A stretch of 64,000 bases of DNA from the IMG/VR virus record IMGVR_UViG_3300036939_000082, positions 96,001-160,000 of that record; one strand, 5' to 3'. Both the position numbers and the translations under genes were made by a program. Shown here one piece after another: positions 29,883 through 57,409 of this stretch. The notes beneath the pieces are model-generated. The model saw only the letters and a list, made by a program, of their open reading frames with translations. It was not told the DNA's origin and made no database searches. Position 1 is the first letter of the stretch. Each line of letters starts with the position of its first letter. Origin of the DNA: a virus.

Positions 29883-29936
29883 ATATCTCTCCAAAACAAC
29901 AGAGGCCGCCCAAATAGCTTGGACGGCCGACGTAGC
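29883..29936 (-). promoter_or_regulatory. leader motif B copy 1 (GCTACGTC, 10-bp stem, U-rich tract, RBS)
   Basis: gctacgtc-ggccgtccaa-gctat-ttgggcggcc-tctgttgttttggag. Confidence 0.75.
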
Positions 29937-30054
29937 AAATTATTTATTTTTTATAGAGTGCTGCAAAAGCAGCACTTTCAACCCGATCGCCCGCGCAATC
30001 TCAGGATTTCTGTACCAAGCATATCGCGAAGGACGAAAACTTGCAAATTTTTAG

Positions 30055-30474
30055 CTAACCTTCGTCTTGAGGCTCCCAACTTTTGAATCCCGCCTGCTCG
30101 GGTCGGATAATGCAGGTTTGATTGATCGGGTCGCGCAAGGCGCTGGCAATTGCCGAAGGAACTCCGTGCATCCCCACTCGCCAATCTACTTTGTTAATTG
30201 ACTGGGTATTTCCCGCATTCACAGCACCCTGCGGCGCGTCAGAATTGCTGTTGCGGGTATAAATTGCCAAGTTTCCGTCAGAGATGGCGACCGGTTCCCT
30301 GCCGCGATACAAGTATTCGCCAGTTAACATACCTTCTTGGAAAAATACTATGCGATATTCGGCGACCGCACTCCACCCGATAACCCTAAATTCGGTTGGC
30401 GGGCGAAGTTTGTGAGGATTGGGGATGATTTTGCCGTCTTCTTTTATCAGTCTTTGGTAAAAATAAGGCTCCAT
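30055..30474 (-). CDS. hypothetical protein coupled to the lysin (likely start MEPYFY at 30474)
   Basis: ATG 1 bp after the lysin stop. Confidence 0.55.
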   Translation of the reverse strand: MEPYFYQRLIKEDGKIIPNPHKLRPPTEFRVIGWSAVAEYRIVFFQEGMLTGEYLYRGREPVAISDGNLAIYTRNSNSDAPQGAVNAGNTQSINKVDWRVGMHGVPSAIASALRDPINQTCIIRPEQAGFKSWEPQDEG

Positions 30475-30475
30475 A

Positions 30476-32585: not shown

Positions 32586-32645
32586 AAGTATAATGACCTA
32601 AAACCTTTACAGCAAGCCCTTTCTGGGTATCCCAGAAAGGGCTTT
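32586..32645 (+). promoter_or_regulatory. -10 element and 14-bp-stem leader hairpin before the kinase
   Basis: AAGTATAAT, then aagccctttctggg-tat-cccagaaagggctt. Confidence 0.6.
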
Positions 32646-32663
32646 ATATTTTAAAAGCACACT

Positions 32664-34589
32664 ATGCTCACAAGTAAAAATTTTTTAGGGCTTCCGGCAC
32701 TTCCCCAGGGACGTACTTTGTCAAGTGAAGAGATATCCAGTGCAGCGATCGCCCTTGCAGCCAAAGTGAAGGAGATTGTTGGGTGCGACGGCGTGTTGGT
32801 ATGCGAGTTTAACTTAATACTGCCAAATCAAGGGCCGAGGATTATTGCAGACGCTTCTAAAGACAGGTGGAATGAAATAATAAACAAGGAATTTGTTGGC
32901 AGGCATTTAAGAAGTTTGTCGCAGCAAATTTACGCAAGTGTTGATATGAGCAAAGACAATTCTCCATACCACGAAGAGCTTTCTAGCCTTGGCATTGGCT
33001 CTGTTCTCAGCGGTTGCATAGAGGTTAACAATCTAGAATGGGGTGCGCTGATCTGCTGGAATAAAAATAGCTGCGAATGGGAAGAAAGCAATTTATTGTT
33101 GATTTTACAGACCTGTCAGTATTTAGAATACGCGATCGCCAGATCGATGTTGAAATCCGTATTTGTAGATCGGGGTCATACAAAAACAATCAGTAAAATT
33201 AAGTCATTGCTCAATACTCCAAGCGATTGGAAAACATTCCAAGTGTTGGTCAAAGCCTCTCTTCAGTCTTTAAGACAGTTGTTTCAAGCCAGCAATTGCT
33301 CTATATTGGTAGGCAACGAATGTTTGTTTACGCTAACAGAAGATCGCTTGTCAGTAACGAGAACCCCTTACTATCAGGACATAGTAACTAAAGACTTGGT
33401 TGTAGTTCCAATCTTTATCAACAGCATTCATTGGGGTTTTATAGAGATAGAATCGCCTTATCTTCCGTGGGATGAAGTAGAAAGTACGTTTTTGAGGAAA
33501 GCCGGGTTTATAATTTGTAGCGCGATCGCCAACAAAGAGTCTGATTACCTTCAAGCTTATTATTTAGATAGGATCATAGAAACAGCACCTATCGTTCTTT
33601 ACAAGCTTGACAAGTTAGGGATTTGCACTTTTTGCTTAGGCAACAATCTAGTTGATTACCAAATTTTTCATAAAGAACTGCTAGGAAAGAATATTTTTGA
33701 AGAGAATGCAGGATATCCAAAAAACCAACAATTTTTCAAGGAAGCTTTTGAACTTAGCACGCATTCGGGATTTGTAAGTGCTAACGGAACAATTTTTCAC
33801 AACCATACCGTACTGCTAGAAAACGGAGAAATTATAGGTGTCGCGATCGATTACACAGAACAGTTTACATTTCAAAAAGATTTGGAAACTGTTGTATACT
33901 CATTGTCTCACGACTTACAGGAACCGTTGAGGGCAATTTCCAACAACCACAAGCTACTAGAAAATAGATTGACAGCAATTGGAGTTCAGGATGATGAAAT
34001 CAGCAACCGCTTAAAAAAAGGATCGTCAAGCGTCAAAAAGTTATCTGAATTGATTGAAGAACAGTTGCAGTTGAGCCGAATAAACTCGACCAAAAAACCA
34101 TTTGAACAAAATGACAGTAAATCTATTATTCAAGAAGCGATAGATAATTTATCGGATTTAATAACTAGGAAAAACGCGCAAATTGAATTTGTGACACCTT
34201 TTTTTCCGACTATTAGCTGCGATCGCTCTCAAATGGTTTCGCTGTTTCAAAATTTAATTGGCAATGCTATCAAATTCAACAATCTTACCGAGCCTCCCTC
34301 AGTATGGATTAGCTGCAATTTAGAAGGAACTAGATTTTGGAAATACGGAATTGCCGATAACGGTATCGGTATAGATCCGCAGTATCAAAAACAAATTTTT
34401 GAAATTTGGAAAAGACTCCACAGTGAATCTGATTTCCCCGGCACAGGAATGGGGTTAGCTATTTGTCGCAAAATAATTAATCGACACAAGGGTAATATTT
34501 GGGTCGAATCAGAAGGCGACGGTACTGGAAGTATATTTTACTTTACAATTCCAGCGTCAACAGAAGGATTGTTGTTTAGTGCAATTTAA
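32664..34589 (+). CDS. GAF-GAF-PAS sensor histidine kinase with Cph1/BphP-type kinase core
   Basis: SHDLQEPLR, FQNLIGNAIKF, DNGIGID, GTGMGLAIC; two GAF-like domains and one PAS-like domain. Confidence 0.9.
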   Translation: MLTSKNFLGLPALPQGRTLSSEEISSAAIALAAKVKEIVGCDGVLVCEFNLILPNQGPRIIADASKDRWNEIINKEFVGRHLRSLSQQIYASVDMSKDNSPYHEELSSLGIGSVLSGCIEVNNLEWGALICWNKNSCEWEESNLLLILQTCQYLEYAIARSMLKSVFVDRGHTKTISKIKSLLNTPSDWKTFQVLVKASLQSLRQLFQASNCSILVGNECLFTLTEDRLSVTRTPYYQDIVTKDLVVVPIFINSIHWGFIEIESPYLPWDEVESTFLRKAGFIICSAIANKESDYLQAYYLDRIIETAPIVLYKLDKLGICTFCLGNNLVDYQIFHKELLGKNIFEENAGYPKNQQFFKEAFELSTHSGFVSANGTIFHNHTVLLENGEIIGVAIDYTEQFTFQKDLETVVYSLSHDLQEPLRAISNNHKLLENRLTAIGVQDDEISNRLKKGSSSVKKLSELIEEQLQLSRINSTKKPFEQNDSKSIIQEAIDNLSDLITRKNAQIEFVTPFFPTISCDRSQMVSLFQNLIGNAIKFNNLTEPPSVWISCNLEGTRFWKYGIADNGIGIDPQYQKQIFEIWKRLHSESDFPGTGMGLAICRKIINRHKGNIWVESEGDGTGSIFYFTIPASTEGLLFSAI

Positions 34590-38443: not shown

Positions 38444-41400
38444 TTACTGCTTGGCTTTTTCAACAATATCTCGCAACTGAGTGCGAATAACTCTTTGCGC
38501 CTGCGGTGATTCCAAATGCTTCATAATTTCGCCCAATAACTCTTCCGCTGCAAAACTTGGATTTGCTCCCTGAACTACAATGTCTCCAAAAACAAATTGA
38601 ACGTTAAATTCTGTTGTCTGCGAAGATGCAGCGGGCGGAAGGGGAATTGGGGTTGCGGGGACAGGCAATGCTCGAAGGCTGGAAACCTCTACCCGATCGC
38701 CCTGGTTGATCGATTCCAATAAAGGTAGGTTCGACCGCGTAGCAGCAGCATTGACAACAAACTCCCCAGGCGACGCCAGAATAGGTACGCGATCGCCCGT
38801 AGATGTTCCCATTCCCGATATCAAACCGCCAGTCGCATAACGCTGTACTGGCTGAACCTGCAGCGGGTGGCTCGGCAAAGGCTGACTCCGCAGCGAAGGA
38901 GCGAACAATCCGCCGACGAACGGAATATTAGCTAAAACCCCCATTGAATTAGTTACAACCCACTGAATCAGATTCCAAATTCCTTGGAAAACTCTAGTAA
39001 TAGCGCTTCCTACAACAACAAATGTTTCTTTTAGTACCCACCCGACCGCCACAACTCCAGAAATTATCGCCAAAAAAGGTGCGGCTGCAACTACCGCAGC
39101 AGAAATACCCGCAATCACAGCCCCAATACCGCCCGTGACGGCTGGAACGACAGCCGCAGCAAAAACTCCTCCTATTGTCGCCAGCGCGCTCCCGACTCCC
39201 GATACAGCAGAGCCGATCGCCCCAACAGCGCCTGTTATGCCAGCAAGCACCGCGCCAAAATTTGCTGCCAAAGTTAAAGTAACGACTGTTCCGGCAATCG
39301 CAGCGCCGACAGTTGCTACTGCTCGAACAATTTTGGAGACAGCGTTAAATACAAATCCTAGCGTTTTAATTACACCGATCAGTACGAATGAAATTGTTTT
39401 AATGATTTTAATCAAACTAAAAGTTAAAGTTTTAACTGGAATCAGCAATACATTGATAATTGATGATGCCAAACCTGATATGTTTCCATCCACTCCGCTA
39501 AAGATGCTGGCGATCGTCCCAAAAATTTGAGCGAATGGCTCGACGATGGTATTTCCCAATTCGACGAGCGCGCTCCACACGCTATCAATTTCCTGAAAGA
39601 GCGTTCCAGTTACTTGGGCGATCGAATCCCAAATTCCCCCAAAAACGCCTGCAACGATACTCCCGATAAAGCTGAAGACTTTTCCCAATACCCATCCAAC
39701 TGCCACAATTCCCAGAAGCAAAGGAATAAAAGGAAGGAAGGGGGAGATTGCTGCGGTTGCTGAGGCAAGGATTGCACTCAAACCGCTGAGAATCACTGGA
39801 ACTAAGACTCCGCTAAATATTCCAGCGACACCGGTGGCAATAGTTGAAAACTCAATTAACGCGAGACTCAACCCAGCAACAAACGCTCCAGCACTTACAA
39901 ACAGTCCCCCTATTTGCGTTAAAGAAGAAAATACCGCTAAAGCAGCGCCTATCCTCAACAGCGATTCAACCAATACGCCAAATACAGTAAAAGCAAATTT
40001 GCCCGCTTGGATTAACGATCCAATGATTCCTGCAACTGTTCCCACGATTGCAGAAGCAACACTGGAAATAGACTCAAGAATCCACGAGCTAAAATTGCCC
40101 AGACTATTTTTTGCATTTTCCACAACCTCTTGAATGCCGCCAATGTTGTCTTTGTAAGATCGGTACAGCAAAAATAGGGCAGAGCTAATTCCCAATATCA
40201 AAGGTAAAAACGGCAGCAGCGGTACAATCATTGATTTGTAGGCAAGTTTGGCAGCACCCGCGACAAATCCGTAAGATGCGGCGATCGCCCCGTTAGCGCC
40301 GCCCACAATTCCTGCTTTAGTCAAAGCAGATGCGGCGATCGCGCTGTCTGCAGCTACGGAACTTGCTGCGTTCGTTGCGTAAAAAGCTCGCATCCCCGGC
40401 ATCGCCGTCCGAATATCTAAGAATGAAGTCACCAAGTCATTCATCATAAATATCGGTGTCGCTAGTTGCGGGGCGATATTCGACAATACGGAACCGATCG
40501 ACAGAGAGAGACTTCTAACGCTTTCACCGACCTGCTTCCTAGCAGCGGTATCTTGCTCGACTGCTAACGTTACTCGCCGATGAGCAGATTCTAGATTCTT
40601 CAAACCTTGAGTATAGACTTTGCTATCGATCGCCCCTTGTTTGTAGAGATCGTTCAACCGCACCTGCCTCGCTGTAATTCTGTGAAGGTTGGTTTGGGAC
40701 TCTACCGGATTCCGACTAACGCTCGACATTGCCAACTTCGCATCAAACTTCAACCCGCCAAGCGCTTCGCCAGCTTCGGCAATTTTAGACGGAGATAGCG
40801 CGGTGAGCGATCGATCTAAAAATCTGTAAATTGCATTGCCTTCAATCTTTGCCGACAGCGCCAAGTCCGACAGCCGACTTTGAATAGTCTCTGTAGTGTT
40901 GACCCAGTTTTTGCGAATCCAGTAAGTCGGTCCCGGCGAGGCTTCCGACAAATCGCCCTGCAATTGCTGTCCGGTTTGTTTCGCTTTCCTGCCGATGCCC
41001 GCGATCGCCCCGACAATTTTGCCTCCGGTTTTTTCCCAAATTGCGCCCACTGTTTTTAAAGGCTGTTCGAGGAACTGGGCGATCGCTGCACCTAGTTCTC
41101 CTAACTCCGACATTAGTCGCCCTTTCAATTCTGTGGCGTTGCTACCGAGAACGCCGATACTAGCAATTATGTCGGGAATCCCTTTGAAAACGCTAAAGAT
41201 GTCGAACGGCAGGGAAACATCTAGACCTAACTTGAACAGAGCAACGCCTACATCTTTTAGTCCAACCAATATTTCAGCTACAACGCCTGCCATCTTCAAT
41301 CCAAAAGTACCGATATCTTTTGCAAAACCGAGGAAACTGCCAGCAATCTCGCTCGCGGTCAGCGCAACGCCCGCTAATTGTGCCTTGAAGCTTGCAAAAC

Positions 41401-47400: not shown

Positions 47401-50400
47401 GAGCGGCCAGTCCGCCAACCGCCCCGATCAAAGTAAACAGTTCTGTTACCTTGTAAAGACTTTGGGCAGTTTCTTCGTCGATAAAACCCATGTTTTGCAG
47501 CGAAAAGAAAGCTGTCTGCGCCGCAAACCCGGCGGCTGTCACAGCACCGCCCACGGCCATTCCAGCCTTGCCAACTCCTCCCACCGCGCCGACTAATTTA
47601 TGAAAAAATCCAACTGATTTGGTTGTAGCCTGTTCTGCCGCTTGAGGGATGCGGGCGATCGACTGCTGGGTAACTTGCGTCGCGCGCTGCATATCTCGGG
47701 CAATCTCTGCTCCCGTTCCCGCCGCCGCCTGAGCCATTTGATTCATGTTTGCAGTGGTAGAGTGTTCGGTATTTTTCCAGGCTGCGCTGGTCACGTCGGA
47801 TGCGCGGTGGTTGAGGCTGCTCACAATCTTGACTCCCGCCCACGCAGCGCGCTTCACCATCGTCCACCAATTATTCCCGGTAATTCTGTTGGTGGCTTCT
47901 TGCCACGCAGTTTCAGTGCGGGTAGCAGCCCCTTGAAAGTAAGTAGAAATTCCTCTGGCTGCGGACGAAGCGCCCTTCAGTATTGATGCGGATATCTTCT
48001 CGGTCAAGGGGAGTATATTGTTACCATATTCAGCCATCCCGCTGTCAATGCTAACGTCGGCCGAATCTATCAGTCCGCGACGCTCTAAACTCCGGTAGTG
48101 CCGCCGCCCTCCCCGGCTGGCTTCTCTAATTGTTGTTTCGCTTTGGGGAATTGCAGCTTGGCGCGATCGCGCGTTCAGCGCATCAGCTCCTTGTCCAACT
48201 TTTTGAGAAGCAGTCTTCAGCAATTCAGCAAGTCCAAACAAAGCTGCTTTTGCCTTAGAAGCAGGAGAGTTAAACTGTTTGGTGTATTCAATCCGATCCC
48301 CCAAAGTTGCTGCGCGGCGTTTAGCAGCAAGACCCAGCCTAGAGTCCCCTTGAGACTGAGCTAGTCTTTCTGCTGCCGCTTTGTGCTTTTGTAAATTTGC
48401 AATATCTTTGTTGCCAAAAACATTAGAAAAAAAGTTTTTGATACCAGAAAACAAATTGCCGATCGCCCCTAAGATTCCGCCTTGCTGCGATCTCGCTTGG
48501 TTCCCCGCTTGACCCAACACTCCGGCAACCGCCTTAAACAGTTCCCCTGCTTTGTCAACTATTTTAACCGTCCAAGATTTAGCTCGTTCTGCATCAAATC
48601 CGCTGGCGCGATCGACAAAAAACTTTGACATCGAATCGCCGCTGCGGGCTAAAAATCGGGAGAAATTATTAAGGAAATTGCTGAACGGGTTTGTCCCGAT
48701 CAACCCTTCGACTTCGCGGGCGATTCGGTTGGTTCCGACTGACATAGCGATTCGGGCGCGATCGATGATGCTCGAAATCCCAATCAATACTGGTTTGCCC
48801 AGTACGGGAGAGATATCTGCAACTATTTTTTTAACAAGTCCACCTGCTCCCGTTTTCGCTGCGAGTGCTGTTACGCCCCCGGTAAAATTCTTTATCAATT
48901 CAGGGAATGCTTTAGCAAAAAATACCTGATAAGGTGCAACAGACTTCGCTGTGTAATTAGGATTTTCAATGATTTCGCGAGCCCTAGCTTCATTTACATC
49001 TAAAGCTTTTCCTAAAGCTTTAGTAATATCTTCAATCTTGTTGCTCATCCCTAATTTGTTGAGTCTGTCTTTGATTGAAATATTATTGCCATTGCTATCT
49101 TTTTGATCTTTTAGGATGGACTGCAAGATAGTGTCTTGAGTTTTTCGATCCTTAATATCAGTTTTCGTAAGCTCTGCAAACATTTGACCCATAAATTGAT
49201 AATGGGTTTTCGGGGCTTTCTCACGCCCTTCTGTCATCATGTGTTCCAAGCTGTTTCGCTGAGCAGTTCTGAAATCTTTATTTAACTTCTCGATTCTTTG
49301 AACAAATTTAGATCCTTTGATACTAACTTCTGCTGCTTTATACAGATCGCCAGCTAGTTTTATTGACGAATCTTTGGCAGATAAAGCTGACTTGTAAATA
49401 CCGGAGTAAAAATTGCGGAGCGGGCGCACAATATTTTCCGCCATTTCTACACTCATAAAAGGTATTTTGATCAATTTTGATTCTAGAGAGTCTATTTTAT
49501 CAATTGTTGATCGATTAAATCGCTCGAAACCCGCATCTAGGTTTTCAAGAAAAACCTGTACGTTAACTTTTAGCTGTTCTAAAGGATTTTTTAGTTTAAC
49601 TTTATCAATATTCTTGAGTTCGCGTGCCGAAGACAAACCAATCAAGCTAGCAATTTGTTCTTGCTGTTCCTGACTGGCTTTTAAAACAAATTTACCAGTC
49701 AACAAGTATTGATCGAATACAGCAGCAAGTGAGTCATCTCTGCGGAGACTGTTTCGCAAATCGTTTAATTCATCTTTGCCTCCTATACCAGCATTGGTTA
49801 ATTGTTTTTGCAGCGTATCAAAATCTGTTTCTTTGAGCTGTTTACCCCGATCGCCCGTACCGTGCGTTAGAAACCTTCGCAACTTTTGAATGTCTTCTTT
49901 GTTTAAATCGGGCGCGGATTTTAGTCTATCTAAGAATGTCTTTAGCCCATCCACCCCCTTAAACTCAGATCGCTTCTCGCCAAAACTAGCTTCTAGCATT
50001 CCAGTTAGTTTGGTAATTTCTTGACCTGTAGCTTCTCGCTGAAACTTTCCTGTTTCTATAAATTGATTAAAAAATTGATGCAACTGTTTGTGTTCTGGTT
50101 CCCTCAATTTTCTCAAAAGTCCATCTAGGTTGCCGTGTATTGGGTTGTTTTTAACTAAAGCGTCAAGTCCTCTTTCTCGCGCCCGTTTCAACAATAAGGC
50201 AGCACTAGCTTCAGATTGAATCAATTTTTCAGTTCTAGCTTGAACTATTCGCGCTTGAATTGCGATTGTTTTGTCAAATCGCATAGATTCTAATATCTTG
50301 GGAATACCAGTCCATCCAAAGAAGGTGCGAGCTAGTGTATTGCGAGTAGAAGTAACTTGCCCTTCTAGCAAGTTAGAAGACTGCTGCATTGCAGTACCAA

Positions 50401-53400
50401 GATTTCTCACGCCTTCTACGGCTACATTGCCAAATCCAGTAACTACTTGTCTCGACCTCCCAGAAGCTTCTTGAAGTTCTTTCGCAGCCTGCTTATTTGC
50501 CGATTCAAACTCTTTAAAAGAGGGTATAGTTACTGCAATAAAATCAGCTTGTCGCTGATTAATCTTGTTGATAACATCCTTGACGACCTTTTCGTATTCT
50601 CCACGGTGAAGAGTCTCCCCTATTGTTTTTGCTGTTTTTATTTGAGCTGCATAAGCCTTGATTTCGTCTTCGCCAAACATATTTGTACCCGGTTTCCCCG
50701 GTCTGTCTGACGATCTAATGTTTGACAAAACCGCCATCATGCTATCTCGAAAAGCGTTTAGTTTGCTCGCGTAAGTGCTTTCTGCAGACTTTAGCGCACC
50801 TCTAATCTTTTCAGACGAAGCGGCAGTGTCAATCGATTTATCTCCTTTATCTTTGAATCTAGACAGTTGAATGTCGAAAGCTCTCTCGCTATCTGGTTTA
50901 TCTTTCGATACTTGCGGTAATTTTGTCTTGCTTACGTAAAGGTATTCGGCTTTAATATCTTCAACGTGCAAATTAGCCATCGCCTTCTGGAAATTATTCA
51001 AAAGGTCAATCGCCACATTCTTGCCACCGGCTAACTTCACTAGCTCTTCGTTGCTCGGGGCATTGCCAAATCGAGAAAATTCAGCATCCAACCCGGATCT
51101 TTTCGCTGCCTCCCGGCGTATGTTTTCAAACTGCAAGCCCCGCCCCGCCTTGACATTTTCGCCGCCCCGACCGCTCATTTTTAGCAGTTGGCGACCGATA
51201 TCGGTAACTTGGTACTGTTCTATACCGAATCGGTTGCGACGTTTTTCTACAGCCGCTCCGCTCACGCCCTCGGTAATGCCGTTTTTGTCTTTGAGGTAAT
51301 ATCGGCGTTCTGCATCTGCCAATCCTTTCCCAAAATCAGTTCCCCGCTTGACTTCGGAAATCAAAGCGCGTTCCGATAATGCCTGTTCTTGTCGCTGGGC
51401 TTTAGCTAACTCTTTCTGATAGCGCAGCGCAGCCTTTGATTTGCCAACCCTTTGATCTCCAAGCATTGTCGCTTGCTGCTGAGTTTGGAAGTCTTGAGAA
51501 TAAGCCAGCGGGTTGGCAATTCCGGCAACTGTCGATCTGCGGCGCACTTTATTTGCAACTTCGCTCAAGCCAACCTGTACGTTAGCGCTGCTAGCAACTT
51601 GCTTGACCCGATCGCCCACGCCTGCTATTGCCTCCGAAACTTGCAAGATGCGTCCGACAAACAAGAGCACGTTGCTGGAAATCATCTGGAACGCACCGCC
51701 GATATTCCGCGTCAGCAGCAGCGCGATCGCGAAGACTCCCGAACCGATTACCGGAAGAAATTTAACAAATTGTTCTGCGAGGTTGCCGATGAACCCAGTT
51801 AAATCCGGGGATACATACAGCCCTAAGAATCCCGCTATTCCCTGCATCGCCACATTCAATGCGTCGATCGGGTGCTGGAGGGCGGTGATGATTTTATCTA
51901 AAGTCTGAAATCCGGTAGCGTACTCGTAAGACAAGAATCCGCCGAGTTCGATCAGTCCCACGATCGCGAATTGGATCGGACTCAGCAATCCGTAAATTCT
52001 ACCCAACACGCTAGCAACCGCCAAAATCTCCGGCCAAAAATCCGCAGCAAACCGAACTAATTTATCGAGTTGCAACTGGCGGACGTAAACCATCACCCCG
52101 GCGGTTGCTGCGACTAAATTTTTGGCAAAGAGTTCCGTCAATCTGGTGATTTCACCGATCGGATCTCGGATCAGCCTGACAATTTCAGCAGCGCTTGCCC
52201 CGACGATCGCCCCTACTGTTTTACCCAAATAGGCGATCGCGCCTACTGCCCGCATCGCTGTCTGCTGAAACCCGAAGTTGATGACTCCAAACAAATCGCT
52301 AAAAATTTGCTTGACTAGCGGTACAAAGTTACCGCGCAACAATGCTGCGATCGCGTCACCGTACTGCTGCGTCTTCAGTCGGATCAGTTTAAATGTTGCC
52401 AATATTGCAATCAGCACACCATCTGCCACCGCTACCGCCGCGAGAAGTACGCCCGCTAGCGGGTTTATGACGGAGAACTTAAAGACGTTGGCAAGGATAG
52501 ACGAAACTCCGACAATCTCGTGAACCGTTACCCCAATACCTGTCCCTAATTTGTCAAAGACATCCATAACGGTTGCAGCCATCCCCGGTATCGCCTTCAA
52601 GAATCGGAACAGCACTTCACCGAGATCGACTACCACAAACCGCATGACTTCCAACACCTTGGCGACGGGCATCAAACTGACACCCAAAAGTCTGGTATTG
52701 GCGATCGCGTCTAACATCTCTTGATTGACTGGTTTCAGGATGTTGTACCAAAACAGCATCGTCAGACCCAATCTACTGACAATCTGGACGATCGGGGAAA
52801 CCATCATCAATCCTTGGACGAGCTTGATAAATACTTTCATCGGACCCGATGCGCTTTCAAGGATTTCAACTAGCGATACCAAACGCTTCTCTCTCTCAGC
52901 CAGTCTCCTCGCTGCGGGAGTAGCTAAAACTTGGAATATTTCAGCTTGTTTCCTAGAAATAAAGTCCAGCGGAACTGCACTCCCCGATACCAACCTCGCA
53001 ACTTCGTTCAAGCTCCTATTCAATCCCAGTGCAATATCGACAGGGTTGATGTAGTTAGCAAGATTAAATATTTGGGACAATCCTCCAAAACCACCCTTCT
53101 TAATAATTCCCGCCAATCCTTTGGTTCGGATGTAAAAAGCCAAGAACTTAAAAGCTGCTGCCGGGTTGAGAGCTTTCATCAGGATATTAGAAACGGGACT
53201 TAACCCTTCTCTAAATGCGTAAACTGCTCCCGACATTAAATCGGTAAAAATCTTTCTGTAGCTTGAGAAAAGAGCAACTAATTGTTTTGTCGGAAAAAAC
53301 CTCAGCAGCAGATTTAGGTAGCGGGGCGCAGATGCCACAATTAACTGAAAGAATCCGCCCAGAGCTTTAGTTGCAACCAAAAACGCAGCCGACAAGTGTT

Positions 53401-56400
53401 TGCCGATATAGGGAATTTCGAGGATTAAGCCAGCAATGCCAATTACTGCGCGATCGATCGCCAGCAACATTGTTCTTCCAACAGCAGCAGCGACAGATTG
53501 AGCGTTAAGCGAGATCGCCCGCAGGATATCCGTAATTGGAGTCAGCTTGCTGATAATTTCCTGCAATACCGCCAATACTGGCAAAGTAACGATTGCATTG
53601 AAAGTAAAAATAACGAGAGAGGAAATAGCGGAAATAGTCCTGAGCGCAGCGGGTAAAACGGTTCCAGTCAAAAAGCCCATAATCCCCTGAACTGAAGGAG
53701 ACTTAGCTAGCGACACCAGTGCCTTTTCCATCGGCAAAATAGCAGTCACTAGCGGTATCAGGGGCGGCAGCGCCGAGAAAAGCGGGAAAGAAGTAAATGG
53801 ATTGAAACTTAAAATTGGTTCGATTCCGGCGTAAATTTCCTTCCCAATTTCCTTGGACAAATCTCCGACGCGGTGGAGGTAAGCAATCAGTCCTACTAGC
53901 GGGCCTCGAATAAAATCTTTAATTGCTAAGTAAGTTTTGTCGATATCAACATCGATCGCCATTCCCCCCGGGAACATTGCGGGCATGGACTTCGTAAAAG
54001 TTGTCAATCCCTCGCTCAGCCCCTCATTTAACTTCTGCTTCATCCCGACTGACAGGGAATTGAAAATTTTGTCGGAAGTTTTTTCTAGAAATTCCGGCAT
54101 TGCATCGATCGCGCCCATGAATCCCCGCTCAATTCCCCGGATCAATCCGGTGGAAGTGGCGATCGCAATTAGCCCCGGCATCGCATATAAGAAAGCCCTG
54201 GGAATTCCTTCTCCAATAATGAACGCTAACTCTGGAACGATTAGCGCTGCACCTTCTTCTAACTGAGCTAGCAGAGTTAGCGGCAGCGACGACAAAGTTA
54301 GCAGTGTAAAACTGAGAAAGTCAAAATTTTCTTTAACTCCATCAATAATACCCCGCTCGAAGTCTCTGATTTTTGTAACCGCTTCACCAATAACTGAAAG
54401 CTTTCTAACGGAGTTAGCGACTAAATTAATCGCCCCTCCGAGCAGTTGCTGCTGAGCCTCCATTCTTGAGGATTCTGTTATATCTCCAATACCTAGAAAG
54501 GCACGGTTGACCAAACCTGCAGCGTTCCGAATCCTAATAAATAGCTTTTCTAAAAAGGCGATCGTGTAATCCCACTTTTCTCGAATCATATAGGTCGGTC
54601 CCGGCGATGCCTCAGCCAATCCCCCTTGCAACAATTTGCCAATCTGGGCTACGAAATCAGCAAAAGGTGTCAGCAAGTTTTTGATGTAGTTCAGCGTGTA
54701 ATTCCACGAATTCTCGATCGCCTTGCCAGCCAACTGAAAGGGCTGCGCGACGAACTTGAAAATATCGCCTCCGATCGCCCGCCCGGATTTCCGCCAAGCT
54801 TCAAAAGCCGCGGTCGCATATTCAATCGCACTGCTGACTGCTGCAAACGGAGCGGTTAATACCGAACCCGCAACAGATGTGGGAATATCTAGCGCAGCGA
54901 GCAGCGCTTCTGTAAATCCTTGAATTATTCCAACCGCGAAACCGGCAACGGAACTGACGGCGCTGAAAATAGTACCCAGTAAATTGATTTCTGGGTTGAT
55001 TTGTTCGAGGATGGCGTTCAATGCGAGGAAACTGGCGATCGCGATACCGAGCGGAGACAGCGCAAACGACACCGACATCGAAGCCAGCGACCTCGAAACC
55101 ACTGCAATATTTCGCGCAATCCCGCTCAATCCAAAATTGACATCCCTAGATGTGGAAGCAATCGTGTCAGAGAAAGCTTCCGCAGCAAACGAGGCAGTCT
55201 TGAACGGATTGGAAGCCGTACCTTCAAAAGCTCCCATCGCCGCCGGGAAAAATCCGGTCAGCGGAATCACGCTAGCTTGCAGTGCAATTCCAGCAGCAGT
55301 GGCAGTAGCAGCGGCTTGCGAAAATCCAAACAGCACTACACCGACTGTTCCGACAGCAACCGACACCGCCGCAAACCCTGCCGCAAGCACCCCAACTCCG
55401 GCAATCAATCCTCGAACAGGAGACGGCAGGTTGGCGACTGCCAGCAACAGTTTGGTTGAAGCGTCGGCAATCGCGCGCACGATCGGGGCGATCGGTTCGA
55501 TCAAATTAACCTGAACTGCTTCAAAAGCAGAACTGAGCGATCGGAACGAACCCGCCAGGTTATTTTCCATCACCTGCGCCATCGTTTTAGCTGCGCCGGA
55601 TTTCCCTTTAAATTCAATCCCCAGTTCGCCCATCGCTGAGGTTAGTTTGCTGACTGCCGCATTTGCGTCGGGAGCAGTCGTCAAGATCGCATCAAATAAA
55701 TTCTCGCCTTCGGGTATTTGAAAATATCCCGACAACTGACTTAACTGGGCACTCGAAAGATTTCCTAGATATTCATTTGATTTAACTAGGGCGATCGTAG
55801 CAGCATCTAATTGTTGCAGCGCATTTTGATAGTTGCCTGCTTCCCGCAGGAGCGAAGTAAAAACATCTTTATCTGTGGCTAATTTGTCTATACCCTGAGA
55901 TTTAAACAACTTCTCATAATCTTCAACAGCAAAGGAACTGCCCCTACCCGCCAAGCTCAGGCGAGTAAATTCTTGCATTTGGCCGATCGCAGCCGATGCG
56001 CCCGAGATGCCAGTCGTACCAAAAATATCTTTTAATGCAGTAATTTGCTTTGATTGAGCAATTTGTCCTAATTTTTCTACGTCGTCGCCTGCTTGAATTA
56101 TGGAATCCAAGGAAGCCGGATCTAATTGCAGGTTCGTACCGATATCTTGCATGACATCGACAATATTTCGCATTTTGCCGCTCGTATCGGTCAGCGAAAT
56201 ACCGTATTCGTTTAGCGCCATCCTGCCCCTTAGCGTAGGTGCAGCTAATTTTAGGAATGCTCCCCTCGCAGCCGTTCCAGCTTTATCTGCTTGAATCCCG
56301 GCGTTTGACATTACCCCAATCAACGCCGAGGTTTCTTCAATTCCCGCGCCAAACAGAGCGGCGTTTGGCGCAGCGTAACTCATCGCTACACCCAACTGCT

Positions 56401-57409
56401 GAATGTTGGTATTTGCGCTAGCAGCCGAAAGCGCCATAACATCGGTAATGTGTCCTAAATCGCTAACTCCCATCCGCATCCCGCTGAGCACGTTGGAGGC
56501 AATATCGGCCGATTCAGCCAATCCCAGTTGTCCGGCCGAAGCTAAATCCAAAGTTGCCGGAACCCCCGCAAAAATCTGTTGAGCGTTAAAGCCCGCCGCC
56601 GCCAAATATTTTTCGGCATCCGCAGCCTCTCCTGCGGTAAATCGAGTTGTCGCCCCCAATAACTTGGCTTTTTCCCGCAACCGATCTAAATCCTTGCCAG
56701 TAGCTCGCGAGATAGCTGCCACCGCACTCATCTTGTCGTCAAAATCAGCAAAAACTTGAATGGCTTCTTTTCCGGCTTGCTTCAGAGGATTGAGCGCTAT
56801 ATTCCCAACTTGATTGAGCGCTCCAAACTCGCCCTTCCTTTGGGAGAAAAACGCAGCTTTGCGTTCGGCATCGTGCAGGGCAAGCTTGTCCTTGATGACG
56901 CGCTGCTGCCGTTTGAGGACTTCGGTAAATTCCCGCTCCGCTGCCGTTTCGCCCTGAACTTGCTTTCTTAATTCTTTCAGGTTTTTAACGTAAGCGTTGA
57001 CAGCGGTTGTGGCTTTCTTGAACTGGCGATCGTCTAGCACGTCTCCAAAATCAATATTTGCCGCAGTAGCTTTCAATGCCCTAAACTCAGCTTTTAGAGG
57101 CTGCAAGCTCTTTGCCATGCTTCCGGAAGCAGTGTCGAGCGAGCGGGCTGCAGATTTAAATTGACCTGCCAGCCCGCTGCTGTCTACGGATTTGGAAGCG
57201 TCGGCAACCGCTTTTTCCATGCTGCGCAAGTGTTTGACGACAGATTTCATGGAAGAAAAACTGCCGTCTGCAACTAAGAAATTAAACTGACCAACCAGTC
57301 CGTAACGATCTAGACTCTCTTCCAAGATTGCCCCCAAACAACAAAAGCCGCCCCATTGGGTGGGGCGGCCGACGTAGCGTGATATATTAATTTCATTGAA
57401 TTGTACCAA
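38444..57409 (-). CDS. giant phage tail tape measure protein (TP901-like core); probable start TTG 57325 (~6293 aa)
   Basis: FADFDDKMSAVAAIS.AT...REKAKLLGATTRFTA.EAA...LDLASAG...SADIASNVL; C-terminal YATGG...TGDRVP.LASPGEFVVNAAAT; uninterrupted frame. Confidence 0.92.
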   Translation of the reverse strand: MVQFNEINISRYVGRPTQWGGFCCLGAILEESLDRYGLVGQFNFLVADGSFSSMKSVVKHLRSMEKAVADASKSVDSSGLAGQFKSAARSLDTASGSMAKSLQPLKAEFRALKATAANIDFGDVLDDRQFKKATTAVNAYVKNLKELRKQVQGETAAEREFTEVLKRQQRVIKDKLALHDAERKAAFFSQRKGEFGALNQVGNIALNPLKQAGKEAIQVFADFDDKMSAVAAISRATGKDLDRLREKAKLLGATTRFTAGEAADAEKYLAAAGFNAQQIFAGVPATLDLASAGQLGLAESADIASNVLSGMRMGVSDLGHITDVMALSAASANTNIQQLGVAMSYAAPNAALFGAGIEETSALIGVMSNAGIQADKAGTAARGAFLKLAAPTLRGRMALNEYGISLTDTSGKMRNIVDVMQDIGTNLQLDPASLDSIIQAGDDVEKLGQIAQSKQITALKDIFGTTGISGASAAIGQMQEFTRLSLAGRGSSFAVEDYEKLFKSQGIDKLATDKDVFTSLLREAGNYQNALQQLDAATIALVKSNEYLGNLSSAQLSQLSGYFQIPEGENLFDAILTTAPDANAAVSKLTSAMGELGIEFKGKSGAAKTMAQVMENNLAGSFRSLSSAFEAVQVNLIEPIAPIVRAIADASTKLLLAVANLPSPVRGLIAGVGVLAAGFAAVSVAVGTVGVVLFGFSQAAATATAAGIALQASVIPLTGFFPAAMGAFEGTASNPFKTASFAAEAFSDTIASTSRDVNFGLSGIARNIAVVSRSLASMSVSFALSPLGIAIASFLALNAILEQINPEINLLGTIFSAVSSVAGFAVGIIQGFTEALLAALDIPTSVAGSVLTAPFAAVSSAIEYATAAFEAWRKSGRAIGGDIFKFVAQPFQLAGKAIENSWNYTLNYIKNLLTPFADFVAQIGKLLQGGLAEASPGPTYMIREKWDYTIAFLEKLFIRIRNAAGLVNRAFLGIGDITESSRMEAQQQLLGGAINLVANSVRKLSVIGEAVTKIRDFERGIIDGVKENFDFLSFTLLTLSSLPLTLLAQLEEGAALIVPELAFIIGEGIPRAFLYAMPGLIAIATSTGLIRGIERGFMGAIDAMPEFLEKTSDKIFNSLSVGMKQKLNEGLSEGLTTFTKSMPAMFPGGMAIDVDIDKTYLAIKDFIRGPLVGLIAYLHRVGDLSKEIGKEIYAGIEPILSFNPFTSFPLFSALPPLIPLVTAILPMEKALVSLAKSPSVQGIMGFLTGTVLPAALRTISAISSLVIFTFNAIVTLPVLAVLQEIISKLTPITDILRAISLNAQSVAAAVGRTMLLAIDRAVIGIAGLILEIPYIGKHLSAAFLVATKALGGFFQLIVASAPRYLNLLLRFFPTKQLVALFSSYRKIFTDLMSGAVYAFREGLSPVSNILMKALNPAAAFKFLAFYIRTKGLAGIIKKGGFGGLSQIFNLANYINPVDIALGLNRSLNEVARLVSGSAVPLDFISRKQAEIFQVLATPAARRLAEREKRLVSLVEILESASGPMKVFIKLVQGLMMVSPIVQIVSRLGLTMLFWYNILKPVNQEMLDAIANTRLLGVSLMPVAKVLEVMRFVVVDLGEVLFRFLKAIPGMAATVMDVFDKLGTGIGVTVHEIVGVSSILANVFKFSVINPLAGVLLAAVAVADGVLIAILATFKLIRLKTQQYGDAIAALLRGNFVPLVKQIFSDLFGVINFGFQQTAMRAVGAIAYLGKTVGAIVGASAAEIVRLIRDPIGEITRLTELFAKNLVAATAGVMVYVRQLQLDKLVRFAADFWPEILAVASVLGRIYGLLSPIQFAIVGLIELGGFLSYEYATGFQTLDKIITALQHPIDALNVAMQGIAGFLGLYVSPDLTGFIGNLAEQFVKFLPVIGSGVFAIALLLTRNIGGAFQMISSNVLLFVGRILQVSEAIAGVGDRVKQVASSANVQVGLSEVANKVRRRSTVAGIANPLAYSQDFQTQQQATMLGDQRVGKSKAALRYQKELAKAQRQEQALSERALISEVKRGTDFGKGLADAERRYYLKDKNGITEGVSGAAVEKRRNRFGIEQYQVTDIGRQLLKMSGRGGENVKAGRGLQFENIRREAAKRSGLDAEFSRFGNAPSNEELVKLAGGKNVAIDLLNNFQKAMANLHVEDIKAEYLYVSKTKLPQVSKDKPDSERAFDIQLSRFKDKGDKSIDTAASSEKIRGALKSAESTYASKLNAFRDSMMAVLSNIRSSDRPGKPGTNMFGEDEIKAYAAQIKTAKTIGETLHRGEYEKVVKDVINKINQRQADFIAVTIPSFKEFESANKQAAKELQEASGRSRQVVTGFGNVAVEGVRNLGTAMQQSSNLLEGQVTSTRNTLARTFFGWTGIPKILESMRFDKTIAIQARIVQARTEKLIQSEASAALLLKRARERGLDALVKNNPIHGNLDGLLRKLREPEHKQLHQFFNQFIETGKFQREATGQEITKLTGMLEASFGEKRSEFKGVDGLKTFLDRLKSAPDLNKEDIQKLRRFLTHGTGDRGKQLKETDFDTLQKQLTNAGIGGKDELNDLRNSLRRDDSLAAVFDQYLLTGKFVLKASQEQQEQIASLIGLSSARELKNIDKVKLKNPLEQLKVNVQVFLENLDAGFERFNRSTIDKIDSLESKLIKIPFMSVEMAENIVRPLRNFYSGIYKSALSAKDSSIKLAGDLYKAAEVSIKGSKFVQRIEKLNKDFRTAQRNSLEHMMTEGREKAPKTHYQFMGQMFAELTKTDIKDRKTQDTILQSILKDQKDSNGNNISIKDRLNKLGMSNKIEDITKALGKALDVNEARAREIIENPNYTAKSVAPYQVFFAKAFPELIKNFTGGVTALAAKTGAGGLVKKIVADISPVLGKPVLIGISSIIDRARIAMSVGTNRIAREVEGLIGTNPFSNFLNNFSRFLARSGDSMSKFFVDRASGFDAERAKSWTVKIVDKAGELFKAVAGVLGQAGNQARSQQGGILGAIGNLFSGIKNFFSNVFGNKDIANLQKHKAAAERLAQSQGDSRLGLAAKRRAATLGDRIEYTKQFNSPASKAKAALFGLAELLKTASQKVGQGADALNARSRQAAIPQSETTIREASRGGRRHYRSLERRGLIDSADVSIDSGMAEYGNNILPLTEKISASILKGASSAARGISTYFQGAATRTETAWQEATNRITGNNWWTMVKRAAWAGVKIVSSLNHRASDVTSAAWKNTEHSTTANMNQMAQAAAGTGAEIARDMQRATQVTQQSIARIPQAAEQATTKSVGFFHKLVGAVGGVGKAGMAVGGAVTAAGFAAQTAFFSLQNMGFIDEETAQSLYKVTELFTLIGAVGGLAAPVLAALGASFGAIVSVSGATIAGLTGIGGAIAGAVGAAALPLAPLIAGVAAIGLAAGGLYLAFKNNFLGIGSLARSAGDMLSQALSAPIAFVTAAWQRFIDAFGGKLMAIVQPALNVAQGLINALNHNPTEKIPTAWEGAVASITGSIQGMVAPAKGVGEEMSESLQADDAKQRRKTEFINSIALGATGEKQKLSWQDNLQIGFGKVVAALTSVLSPLDSVGKKLDTQAQLLHAQIRQQQTAQAQTLWRFATNKERNKNLATRIEAMLQRRFSREAPPQLSHSARSMGGFVQRGSPTVTAPAMLGTLQQSGAGKSISKFGNLLKPIFGLGMLGELGTLILGIGGITTALSVLTLAFTTDFADIRTKTVKLTTAISNLFSGSVQAIQKAWTGFVHWFLDMPLVDTALEIALGLIDALNHNPTEKIPTAWEGAVERISGAMNWLLTPAKEVAGILTGIFSPVGNFFSGKAKQANLVVSQGKEAVVNTKNSLTNTYVGMEGFFTQGSRAIESELYLHRGLFVSIVSTLDRIAFYTKSLLALLDKPQEETRSLATAQAPDLGKSSVSAQRKYQIGLGLKGEGWEKRTEQSRQKDISNDLDQQKRGWNPLEGIPLLDKVHIPDFIEIRNVFDKESAFRTQVQTQMQKEELKIADTILQGLNSKSLSSQAEYAGLATKITVQKKGLGGLLGQTEDVYKINQAGQKYIEEQLAASAKNQEGMFSNARLSATAASVGAKIPDRALLDKALVGQDSLNDAIKLAPGQPGKSQQIVQLEAINSVLGEILMAINTLHPPMQLPVKQAIADRSRENLLPLEVAETSSAQKFLSFLIQGIKENAPKIANSIQGTVKSGIDKTKDFISSRKQDFIEKKTYLAAKAGAGIFSGAAPKTANTVGVGVTGAIGLGDLGAASTNAAWVNTASAITANINSLVQPAEDSGYELQKAVSEGSPGPTYWIRHYWEKTVGAIGGWMGDIQANAKETGSILRGNLTNSASEILLSPPTNDLKSQAIRAASFFALAVGDRYQYLADRGVGSASILFAPGMEYVTSSLSQLGNDLVDFVGRSAKALLTLNFVELGDAARDFFGNFKYGVGGVLSGFNSMSLSAIAFGLFSLSGISPLLLVLGGVAFTAAVIAANFLGIRTILTGLIKIGIGAGKILAGALWGLVEAAGAFKTIALGILPALKGDFTLIQEGFRGLGFAFENFGRSADDGLKVIARGSFQVLRGIGEAIEQVFRPLGFTLKRATESINNFFLAFKSGEQAGEMVASILINAVKSVTDAVAFAIDSVKHHFPAIKQLFAEQVDLAVQSIKNGIFQVQESIKNFTFKDAITGISQLFGSIDGSSESIPDRLKRLVPGITEALTAPLKYVGDFWRGFFNTILVALPPDIAAAVQKGFGGAISAVESKFRQIMKMLNVEEYFDRAIVKVQSSWQQLGDWLRQSDLFRVAGDRLREAFKPENISQAFLSTVNILEAAWSKFVGWMSGTNLFSWLFDRLLKVGLEFTLFSGLLREKWSEVQKSLATGQIFQGFFDRLKDLSGRLSAWAIEVGLKFEIPAIQNLFVKIALLGERLSNTVAFIQEKWNKLSVWLSETPMIPGALDFLTLIGTKFGETISWIKSEWPNFITFLSSADLFTGISAKMKNFGESIPSLFEKVKEQIAKIIPSINGAIASVQAQWQRLTEFLNRKDLFLTVLTGLQDFSSRVPQLFEQALQEVPIAFGKAADWIKRKWEKFAAEFQTILTPIADFAKWLGQTLIGLLNHSPTVKIPEAWKEAVTKITNSLLQLIAPATWVATQIIAKFNLLDVIKNGFKSLNGFISNFATSLFSEVQQPLTDLIGIVISASKSAIDFGQTLFDIARAVNSGAIASDEMTSKLTGVSSAVRHLGEFLGWILKNLGQFSQGLTSAGRDTDRAASAGKDFGQVVGKILAGIVNFSTTVLPPLFKVLWVFTQIGIELSAFALKFVWAFRFVLDWPARVMTAVLGLYKSVLRFVALLSSFSRKSKEAFAGVQEGFASFKAQLAGVALTASEIAGSFLGFAKDIGTFGLKMAGVVAEILVGLKDVGVALFKLGLDVSLPFDIFSVFKGIPDIIASIGVLGSNATELKGRLMSELGELGAAIAQFLEQPLKTVGAIWEKTGGKIVGAIAGIGRKAKQTGQQLQGDLSEASPGPTYWIRKNWVNTTETIQSRLSDLALSAKIEGNAIYRFLDRSLTALSPSKIAEAGEALGGLKFDAKLAMSSVSRNPVESQTNLHRITARQVRLNDLYKQGAIDSKVYTQGLKNLESAHRRVTLAVEQDTAARKQVGESVRSLSLSIGSVLSNIAPQLATPIFMMNDLVTSFLDIRTAMPGMRAFYATNAASSVAADSAIAASALTKAGIVGGANGAIAASYGFVAGAAKLAYKSMIVPLLPFLPLILGISSALFLLYRSYKDNIGGIQEVVENAKNSLGNFSSWILESISSVASAIVGTVAGIIGSLIQAGKFAFTVFGVLVESLLRIGAALAVFSSLTQIGGLFVSAGAFVAGLSLALIEFSTIATGVAGIFSGVLVPVILSGLSAILASATAAISPFLPFIPLLLGIVAVGWVLGKVFSFIGSIVAGVFGGIWDSIAQVTGTLFQEIDSVWSALVELGNTIVEPFAQIFGTIASIFSGVDGNISGLASSIINVLLIPVKTLTFSLIKIIKTISFVLIGVIKTLGFVFNAVSKIVRAVATVGAAIAGTVVTLTLAANFGAVLAGITGAVGAIGSAVSGVGSALATIGGVFAAAVVPAVTGGIGAVIAGISAAVVAAAPFLAIISGVVAVGWVLKETFVVVGSAITRVFQGIWNLIQWVVTNSMGVLANIPFVGGLFAPSLRSQPLPSHPLQVQPVQRYATGGLISGMGTSTGDRVPILASPGEFVVNAAATRSNLPLLESINQGDRVEVSSLRALPVPATPIPLPPAASSQTTEFNVQFVFGDIVVQGANPSFAAEELLGEIMKHLESPQAQRVIRTQLRDIVEKAKQ
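57326..57378 (-). promoter_or_regulatory. leader motif B copy 2, before the TMP
   Basis: gctacgtc-ggccgcccca-cccaa-tggggcggct-tttgttgtttgggg; TGGTACAAT at 57400-57408. Confidence 0.75.

What the first reader, a model, noticed from the sequence alone, without database searches (positions are those of the whole stretch)
29883..57408. Leader motif B: near-identical 5' UTR before the TMP and the fibre operon, 27 kb apart
Both read GCTACGTC, a 10-bp stem (GGCCG(C/T)CC(C/A)A), a 5-nt loop, T(T/C)TGTTGTTT and an RBS. There is a 13-bp exact match (29924-29936 = 57366-57378) plus compensatory stem changes, while the loops differ. In the TMP case the motif lies downstream of a -10. A terminator in the UTR of a 19-kb gene implies an antitermination switch, with GCUACGUC as a possible loading site.
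Basis: partly seen in the sequence, partly recalled or inferred. Interest (0 to 1): 0.72.

Follow-up and report, generated by a model that had tools for sequence, protein, structure and literature searches.

The report
Shared hairpin leader before phage tail genes
Two tail gene units of a large cyanobacterial phage (the giant tape-measure gene and the tail-fibre operon) begin with the same short RNA hairpin that looks like a transcription stop signal; it is a real, lineage-specific leader, but nothing here shows a new kind of switch.

Summary
On the minus strand, 29936-29889 and 57378-57331 share GCTACGTC, a 10-bp GC-rich hairpin, a U/G-rich tract and an SD (38/48 identical; exact 13-mer). There are exactly two copies in the 189-kb phage.

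The only close relative available (G001) has both copies at the same two places. Pairing is kept there by compensatory and wobble changes, except for one A·C mismatch. The GCTACGTC box is not kept (GCTATGTC, GCTACGCA).

TMP relatives at 50% and 38% identity carry unrelated GC hairpins plus a U-tract at the same spot. A diverged version of the leader (hairpin + YGTYGTTT + RGG) heads the sheath operon.

The TMP copy scores as a strong intrinsic terminator, the fibre copy as borderline. No co-directional gene lies directly upstream of the TMP copy, so both hairpins are very probably in 5' UTRs.

I found no homologue of Q, NusG or sigma-70 region 2.

Best reading (0.42): a leaky, promoter-proximal terminator-type attenuator. 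Main rival (0.30): a 5' stabiliser or translation module. A dedicated antitermination switch loaded at GCUACGUC is unsupported (about 0.1).

Verdict: a new member of a known kind, of moderate to low interest. The same motif was also noted in another window of this scan.

The parts
29929..29936 (-). Site A box GCTACGTC (GCTATGTC in the sister phage)
29904..29928 (-). Site A hairpin: GGCCGTCCAA / loop GCTAT / TTGGGCGGCC, 10 bp with one U.G that pairs only on the sense strand. Stem dG -17.5 kcal/mol, terminator score d=-7.
29883..29903 (-). Site A tail: TCTGTTGTTTT, SD GGAGAG and spacer ATAT. The fibre/spike gene then starts at ATG 29882 (28692..29882).
29937..30046 (-). Fibre leader upstream part. 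Candidate sigma-70-type promoter TTGCAA (30046-30041) - 17 nt - TATGCT (30023-30018), with both hexamers kept and the spacer diverged in the sister phage; predicted TSS about 30011. Then hairpins H0 and H1 (H1 29976-29957, replaced by a different hairpin in the sister phage) and a 21-nt fully conserved A-rich block ending in GCTA.
   Evidence: the promoter is an inference
57371..57378 (-). Site B box GCTACGTC (GCTACGCA in the sister phage)
57346..57370 (-). Site B hairpin: GGCCGCCCCA / loop CCCAA / TGGGGCGGCT. Stem dG about -19 to -20.5 kcal/mol, terminator score d=39, comparable to the phage's gene-end terminators.
57323..57345 (-). Site B tail: TTTGTTGTTT, SD GGGGG, spacer CAATC and the probable TTG start codon of the TMP (gene 38444..57325, about 6293 aa).
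57379..57438 (-). TMP promoter region inside the 88-nt divergent spacer and the first codons of the plus-strand gene. Candidates: TTGCTA (57438-57433) - 18 nt - TATTTT (57414-57409), TSS about 57402; or the proximal TAATAT/TATATC (57389-57381), TSS inside the box.
   Evidence: inference only
57380..57388 (+). Extended -10-like TGATATATT of the divergent plus-strand gene (ATG 57414). It abuts the box, so the AT-rich block next to site B is at least partly another gene's promoter.
   Evidence: inference

Best explanation
Motif B is this lineage's version of a leader module that heads the phage's tail transcription units. Its order is: promoter region, GC-rich RNA hairpin, U/G-rich tract (UUUGUYGUUU), Shine-Dalgarno, start codon.

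The hairpin forms in the mRNA. Because a U-tract follows it directly, it most likely works as a promoter-proximal, leaky intrinsic terminator, that is, an attenuator or 'valve'. Part of the polymerases stop about 45-130 nt after initiation, and only read-through transcripts reach the gene. The effect should be strongest at the 19-kb TMP gene (canonical stem plus U4GU2GU3, and a weak TTG start codon) and weak at the fibre operon.

Shown: the sequence repeat, its RNA-strand pairing, its conservation at both orthologous sites, its terminator-like score, and its position with no co-directional gene directly upstream at site B.

Inferred: the promoters and TSS, actual termination, and any regulation. 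A cyanobacterial precedent for this read-through architecture is the 'actuaton' (PMC5386190).
For: - Two copies only, 38/48 identical, local alignment about 12 sd above shuffles.
- Pairing is kept in 39/40 stem cells over four sequences. There are G-C to A-U and A-U to C-G double changes, and five U.G wobbles that pair only on the sense strand.
- Terminator score at site B is d=39, within the range (0-48) of about 45 gene-end terminators of the same genome.
- Site B lies in an 88-nt divergent spacer, so it must be downstream of the TMP promoter.
- Site A is preceded by TTGC(A/G)A-17-TATGCT, with hexamers conserved and spacer diverged in G001.
- TMP relatives at 50% and 38% identity carry unrelated 16-bp and 10-bp GC hairpins plus a U-tract 20 and 7 nt before the homologous start codon.
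- Hairpin + YGTYGTTT occurs 4 times against 0.18 expected, always in minus-strand leaders, including the one before the sheath operon.
- The TMP uses TTG where relatives use ATG.
Against: - No TSS or 3'-end data exist, and the promoters are weak consensus matches.
- The fibre copy and its orthologue have interrupted U-tracts and score at or below threshold (d=-7), whereas the phage's genuine terminators use unbroken T-runs.
- The best conserved part of the tail is the distal GUYGUUU, not the stem-proximal U's that matter most for termination.
- A related leader heads the high-copy sheath operon, which weakens a 'low-copy valve' rationale.
- In relative G003 an extended -10 (TGCTACAAT) would put the TSS only about 6 nt before the hairpin. 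That position is typical of a stabiliser.
- B1 carries an A.C mismatch in the stem.
Confidence: 0.42

Rival explanations
1. A non-terminating 5'-UTR module. The GC hairpin sits at or near the 5' end of the late mRNAs and protects them from 5'-end-dependent decay (cyanobacteria have RNase E and RNase J). The U/G-rich tract next to the SD acts as a ribosome-loading or enhancer site. The terminator look would then be incidental.
For: - AT-rich -10-like elements end 3-9 nt before the box at both sites, and a 21-nt block there is 100% conserved at site A while the flanks are about 75-80% identical.
- In G003 an extended -10, TGCTACAAT, predicts a TSS about 6 nt before the hairpin.
- The sequence-conserved part is the distal GUYGUUU beside the SD.
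- Hairpin sequences are freely replaced while position is kept.
- U-tracts are interrupted, unlike those of genuine terminators.
- The module also heads the high-copy sheath operon.
- A 19-kb mRNA would benefit from a protected 5' end (inference).
Against: - A 9-10-bp GC stem followed by UUUU is physically expected to terminate part of the transcripts (site B d=39).
- If the distal promoters are the real ones, the hairpins lie 32-83 nt from the 5' end, too far for the classical 5'-terminal protection.
- At site B the AT-rich block is also explained by the plus-strand promoter.
Confidence: 0.3
2. One reading: a tight leader terminator that is overcome late in infection by a dedicated phage antitermination factor that loads at GCUACGUC or the hairpin. 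This would be lambda Q/N-like logic applied to dispersed late units.
For: - Terminator anatomy in the leaders of two (or three) separate tail units of a phage whose structural genes are dispersed, which would fit a common gate.
- The record is classed as a provirus, where tight late-gene silencing is useful.
- The box plus hairpin is shared by two units 27 kb apart.
Against: - No homologue of Q, NusG or sigma-70 region 2 in the 98%-complete record.
- The box is mutated in both copies of the sister phage. Three of the 14 differences in the 231-nt site B alignment (94% identical by count) fall within the 13-mer. The box is also absent in G003 and G004.
- Loops differ in every copy.
- The fibre copy is a weak terminator.
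- The box can be read as the 5' strand of a basal helix with UGUYGU, and all observed changes fall on unpaired or wobble-compatible positions.
Confidence: 0.1
3. A portable regulatory cassette kept mainly by descent and recombination (PeSL-like). The repeat would be a duplicated promoter-leader that marks module boundaries and serves as a homology anchor for swapping fibre and accessory modules, with no role for the shared sequence beyond being a leader.
For: - Both copies sit at mosaic junctions between G000 and G001. The fibre N-terminus is not alignable while the upstream gene is 89% identical.
- The divergent gene at site B keeps only its first about 45 residues.
- Tandem relic copies of the related leader, with the first codons duplicated, lie before the sheath operon.
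- PeSLs are composite terminator/promoter repeats with lineage-specific stems (PMC4122927).
Against: - Pairing is maintained by compensatory and wobble changes, and a hairpin is retained at the same place in relatives whose sequence is unrelated. This argues for selection on the RNA structure itself.
- Recombination history explains the origin of the repeat, not what the hairpin does.
Confidence: 0.13
4. A DNA-level site: the palindrome is an operator for a dimeric DNA-binding protein or a cruciform. Alternatively, the similarity is chance.
For: Near-perfect inverted repeats containing CGGCCG, placed next to promoters.
Against: - Half-site sequences change between copies while complementarity is kept.
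- Wobble pairs work only on the sense strand (5 cells against 1).
- The alignment lies about 12 sd above shuffles, and orthologous conservation rules out chance.
Confidence: 0.05

Closest known systems
Intrinsic (Rho-independent) terminators used as 5'-leader attenuators; in cyanobacteria the 'actuaton' arrangement (PMC5386190)
   Same: GC-rich stem, short loop and an immediately following U-rich tract, lying between a promoter and the coding region, so that the mRNA arises only by read-through.
   Different: No data show a discrete short RNA or termination here. The U-tracts are interrupted by G/C. There is no alternative antiterminator fold. Two to four related copies serve different tail units of a phage.
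Lambda-type late control: pR' - tR' terminator - Q antiterminator (own knowledge)
   Same: A terminator placed shortly after the late promoter and before long structural genes.
   Different: No Q-family protein was found. There is no -10-like pause element in the box, and there are several dispersed units rather than one late operon. The hairpin lies only 9-20 nt before the SD/start.
5'-terminal stabiliser stem-loops (E. coli ompA leader, phage SP82 and T4 gene 32 leaders; own knowledge)
   Same: A stable hairpin at the start of an mRNA just upstream of the RBS. It would be useful for a very long transcript.
   Different: Those elements need to be within a few nt of the 5' end and have no U-tract. 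Here the TSS is unknown.
PeSL composite terminator/promoter cassettes of T4-like phages (PMC2839356, PMC4122927)
   Same: Short repeated stem-loop-plus-promoter motifs at gene boundaries, with lineage-specific stems, associated with indels and module exchange.
   Different: Going by their name (promoter-early stem loop), PeSLs belong to early cassettes. Here the stem-loop appears to follow the promoter and heads late tail units. The order of parts within a PeSL was not checked in the papers.
Leader motif A of the same phage
   Same: A terminator-like hairpin plus T-run directly before structural-gene start codons, in several copies.
   Different: Different stem (CCGYCAGGG..CCCTCTGGYGG), unbroken T-runs, no SD, and usually close behind a co-directional gene.

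Membership tests
Intrinsic terminator | GC-rich stem of about 5-14 bp with a 3-8-nt loop | tested here: met
   10-bp stems with 7-8 G-C pairs and 5-nt loops. Stem dG is -17.5 and about -19 to -20.5 kcal/mol; MFE of the 48-56-nt cores is -19.6 and -23.1.
Intrinsic terminator | U-tract directly 3' of the stem | tested here: inconclusive
   Site B has UUUUGUUGUUU (d=39). Site A has UCUGUUGUUUU (d=-7), and its orthologue is similar or worse.
Intrinsic terminator | Produces RNA 3' ends in vivo or in vitro | not testable with these tools
   No transcript data were available.
Lambda Q-type antitermination module | Q-family antiterminator gene in the phage | tested here: not met
   PF06530 and PF03589 gave no six-frame match in the 98%-complete record. 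NusG and Sigma70_r2 gave none either.
Lambda Q-type antitermination module | Conserved promoter-proximal loading or pause element shared by all controlled units | tested here: not met
   Only GCTAYG is invariant in four copies. The box is absent at the sheath-operon leader and in G003 and G004.
5'-terminal mRNA stabiliser hairpin | Hairpin within a few nt of the transcript's 5' end | not testable with these tools
   Proximal -10-like elements would give 2-8 nt. The distal candidates give 32-83 nt.
PeSL-type shuffling cassette | Repeated stem-loop/promoter motif at indel or mosaic junctions | tested here: inconclusive
   Both copies sit at junctions between conserved and replaced sequence, and relic tandem copies exist. 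Only two genomes could be compared.
Any Rfam family | Match at the gathering threshold | tested here: not met
   No match in the window. Only sub-threshold matches were found, the best being PyrG leader at 25 bits against a gathering score of 65.

The most novel reading that the evidence does not exclude
The hairpin leaders (motif B, its sheath-operon relative and perhaps motif A) are the cis sites of an unrecognised phage antitermination or RNA-binding system. This system would co-ordinately open the dispersed late tail units of giant-tailed cyanophages in a host that lacks Rho. Lineage-specific stems would co-evolve with the factor.
Probability: 0.1. Interest if true: 0.7.

Novelty: new member of a known kind. 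Interest (0 to 1): 0.33.

Why it matters
The element gives a concrete, testable handle on how a phage with scattered structural genes and a 19-kb tape-measure gene sets or times expression of its tail parts in cyanobacteria, where late-gene control is almost unstudied. If the hairpins terminate, they are natural, tunable attenuators. If they stabilise, they are compact 5' modules for very long mRNAs. As it stands, this is an ordinary-looking leader hairpin confined to two closely related metagenomic phages.

Tried and rejected
- Exact-pattern scans for the motif in viral, genome and metagenome collections. Only the sister phage has it; the other 15 hits are chance matches in 51-74% GC DNA, apparently coding.
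- Rfam at gathering and permissive thresholds: nothing.
- Q, NusG, sigma-70 r2/r4 and HK97-capsid family searches in the genome. There were no relevant hits; the r4 matches are sub-threshold HTH repeats.
- A fifth CM hit in G001 is an ordinary bidirectional terminator that appears to follow a tRNA-like 3' end.
- A common late-promoter word (CTAAAAA(A)TA, TTGGTACA) is not enriched at late genes.
- An RfaH ops-like GTAGCGTG exists at site B only, on the wrong strand. I judged it coincidence.
- A DGR-type hairpin was rejected because the element is at the 5', not the 3', end of the fibre gene.
- The 'low-copy valve' rationale is weakened by the sheath-operon copy.
- Fetching DNA of the giant-TMP relatives P0003-P0016 failed.
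- The TMP alignment was too long for the search for related loci.
- Relatives cannot be drawn for a virus record.
- GenBank phages hold no close relative.

Full report
WHAT IS THERE

The window is bases 96001-160000 of a 188,942-bp IMG/VR record classed as a provirus and estimated 98% complete. It has 43% GC and 127 HIP1 sites, which points to a cyanobacterial host.

Both motif copies are on the minus strand.
- Site A: GCTACGTC (29936-29929); stem GGCCGTCCAA / loop GCTAT / TTGGGCGGCC (29928-29904); TCTGTTGTTTT; GGAGAG; ATAT; ATG at 29882. The gene is a tail spike/fibre gene (phrog_4636 E=3.5e-90; Peptidase_S74).
- Site B: GCTACGTC (57378-57371); GGCCGCCCCA / CCCAA / TGGGGCGGCT (57370-57346); TTTGTTGTTT; GGGGG; CAATC; TTG at 57325. 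The gene is a giant tape-measure gene, with TMP PHROGs down to E=3.5e-73.

The ORF-list start at 57409 is not the real one. In the sister phage the 28 extra codons show 4 amino-acid changes from 7 nt differences, and homologues start at ME..DRYG.

IS IT MORE THAN CHANCE?

Yes.
- The 13-mer occurs only twice in the window and in the genome.
- The 48-nt cores are 38/48 identical.
- Local alignment scores 48, against a shuffle mean of 17.7, sd 2.4 and maximum 28.
- A covariance model built on four copies finds exactly two full copies in each of two genomes.

RELATIVES

Only one IMG/VR contig, G001 (188,553 bp, TMP N-terminus 96% identical), carries the motif, at both orthologous places. Pattern scans of the genome and metagenome collections returned only chance hits in 51-74% GC DNA.
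- In G001 the fibre copy reads GCTATGTC AGCCGTCCAA ACCTT TTGGGCGGTT GTTGTCGTTT. Pair 1 changed G-C to A-U and pair 2 changed to G.U.
- The TMP copy reads GCTACGCA GGCCACCCCA CCCAA TGGGGCGGCT, which has one A.C mismatch.

Over the four sequences, 39 of 40 stem cells pair. Sliding the partner strand drops this to 32-58%. With four sequences the shuffle statistics are weak (60/500).

Five wobble cells pair only on the sense strand, against one that would pair only on the other strand. This favours an RNA hairpin over a duplex-DNA site.

If each paralogue is used as the outgroup for the other, G000 keeps the ancestral letters and G001 has changed the box in both copies. At site B, 3 of the 14 differences in the 231-nt alignment (94% identical by count) fall inside the 13-mer. 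In G001 the two leaders are no longer significantly alike (score 21). GCTACGTC is therefore not under strict sequence constraint.

A WIDER FAMILY

Searching for a GC hairpin followed within 5 nt by YGTYGTTT gives 4 cases in the genome against 0.18 expected. All are minus-strand leaders. They are the two motif-B copies plus two tandem copies outside the window, at L050:13021-13002 (genome 92,621) and L050:12922-12904 (genome 92,522).
- The first of these is a relic whose tail, TTTGTCGTTTGAGGCAATC, closely matches the TMP tail TTTGTTGTTTGGGGGCAATC (18 of 20 positions by my count).
- The second directly precedes a 118-aa/106-aa/140-aa/1000-aa operon. The 1000-aa product is a tail sheath (phrog_23, E=1.3e-14).
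- G001 has both copies, again with altered hairpins.

More distant giant-TMP phages were reached with a degenerate pattern.
- G003 (50% identity, an 8,060-aa ORF) has a 16-bp hairpin, then TTTTGG, 20 nt before ATG GAA GAA..GAT CGC TAC GGC.
- G004 (38% identity) has a 10-bp hairpin, then ATCTTTT, 7 nt before ATG.

The stems are unrelated in sequence and neither has the box next to the hairpin. What is conserved is a GC hairpin plus a U-rich tract just before the TMP RBS.

CONTEXT

At site B the nearest upstream gene is divergent. It is a plus-strand 281-aa gene starting at ATG 57414. It looks real: its first about 40 residues are conserved in G001 while the rest is replaced. The next minus-strand gene upstream has its own bidirectional terminator at 58280-58316. 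The hairpin therefore cannot be a preceding gene's terminator and must lie downstream of the TMP promoter.

Candidate promoters at site B are weak:
- TTGCTA-18-TATTTT, with a TSS near 57402 and a 77-nt leader;
- the proximal TAATAT/TATATC, with a TSS inside the box.

The same AT-rich block holds an extended -10, TGATATATT, for the plus-strand gene.

At site A, TTGCAA-17-TATGCT (30046-30018) is kept as TTGCGA-17-TATGCT in G001 while the spacer diverges. This suggests a real promoter and a structured leader of about 129 nt with three hairpins (z=-3.9 and -4.9). The middle hairpin is replaced in G001 by a different hairpin at the same place. A 21-nt A-rich block ending in GCTA is 100% conserved.

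TERMINATOR QUALITY

I used a d'Aubenton-Carafa-type score. Site B gives d=39, inside the 0-48 range of about 45 mostly gene-end terminators of this phage. Site A gives d=-7. The sheath-operon copy gives d=18. Genuine terminators here have unbroken T5-T8 runs, whereas the motif-B family has TTTGTYGTTT. No sense-strand terminator-like hairpin lies inside the 18.9-kb TMP ORF.

REGULATORS

Six-frame family searches found no Q (PF06530, PF03589), no NusG and no sigma-70 region 2. The only region-4 matches are sub-threshold HTH repeats. Rfam gives nothing. No antiterminator fold common to both leaders is predicted.

The box letters GC.ACG can pair with UGU.GU of the tail. All observed changes (C5 to U, the UC to CA change, and U39 to C) fall on wobble-compatible or unpaired positions. 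This gives a structural reason for the box, though a weakly supported one.

READING

A 9-10-bp GC stem followed by U4 is physically expected to stop part of the polymerases. My best explanation (0.42) is therefore a leaky, promoter-proximal attenuator. It would be strongest at the TMP gene, which also uses a weak TTG start. This is analogous to cyanobacterial actuatons, where mRNAs arise by read-through of a leader terminator (PMC5386190).

The main rival (0.30) is a 5' stabiliser or translation module. It is supported by the promoter-proximal position (especially in G003), by the conserved distal GUYGUUU next to the SD, by the interrupted U-tracts, and by the copy before the high-copy sheath operon.

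A PeSL-like history as a portable leader at mosaic junctions (PMC4122927) plausibly explains the origin of the repeat. The fibre N-terminus is swapped right after the conserved leader, and the divergent gene is swapped beyond about 57500.

LIMITS

Another first-stage note (e1-5858888) flagged the same motif from an overlapping window.

Noticed in passing
window 57323-57409 (-): The TMP probably starts at TTG 57325 (about 6293 aa), not at 57409. Relatives at 50% and 38% identity use ATG at the homologous codon (ME..DRYG).
   Followed up: yes
proteins P0003-P0021; G003:C1 about 300-24,500: A family of giant TP901-type tape-measure proteins (about 5,800-7,800 aa, plus an 8,060-aa ORF in G003) occurs in cyanophage-like contigs from JGI, ENA, Logan and NCBI. 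HIP1 is abundant in G003 and G004.
   Followed up: partly
L050:12878-13085 (genome 92,478-92,685; outside the window): Tandem duplicated leader (hairpin + TTTGTCGTTT + RGG) before the 118-aa/106-aa/140-aa/sheath operon. The upstream copy is a relic without a start codon in G000. In G001 it keeps ATG plus a 7-codon mini-ORF.
   Followed up: partly
window 57414-58259 (+) versus L003:1593-2930 (-): The gene divergent from the TMP keeps only its first about 40-45 residues between the two phages (281 aa against 445 aa). DNA is about 94-97% identical from about 57270/57300 to 57500 and then unalignable, so this is a sharp mosaic junction.
   Followed up: partly
window 29957-29976 (-) versus L015:1449-1477: The middle hairpin of the fibre leader (AGUGCUGC-UUUU-GCAGCACU) is replaced in the sister phage by an unrelated AU-rich hairpin at the same position. 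Next to it is an 18-nt fully conserved HIP1-containing block.
   Followed up: no
window 58318-59727 (-): A conserved 469-aa protein of unknown function with no Pfam or PHROG hit. It has 53-69% identical homologues in metagenomes and in Microcoleus and Xenococcaceae MAGs. By eye it has a repeated beta-rich pattern reminiscent of sliding clamps; this was not tested.
   Followed up: no
window 32614-32644 (+): The kinase-like gene (32664..34589) also has a strong hairpin between a good TTGCCG-17-TATAAT promoter and its ATG. Leader hairpins are therefore a general habit of this phage.
   Followed up: no
window 58280-58316 (both strands): A bidirectional terminator shared by the convergent 469-aa (-) and 281-aa (+) genes. 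It isolates the TMP unit from upstream minus-strand transcription.
   Followed up: no
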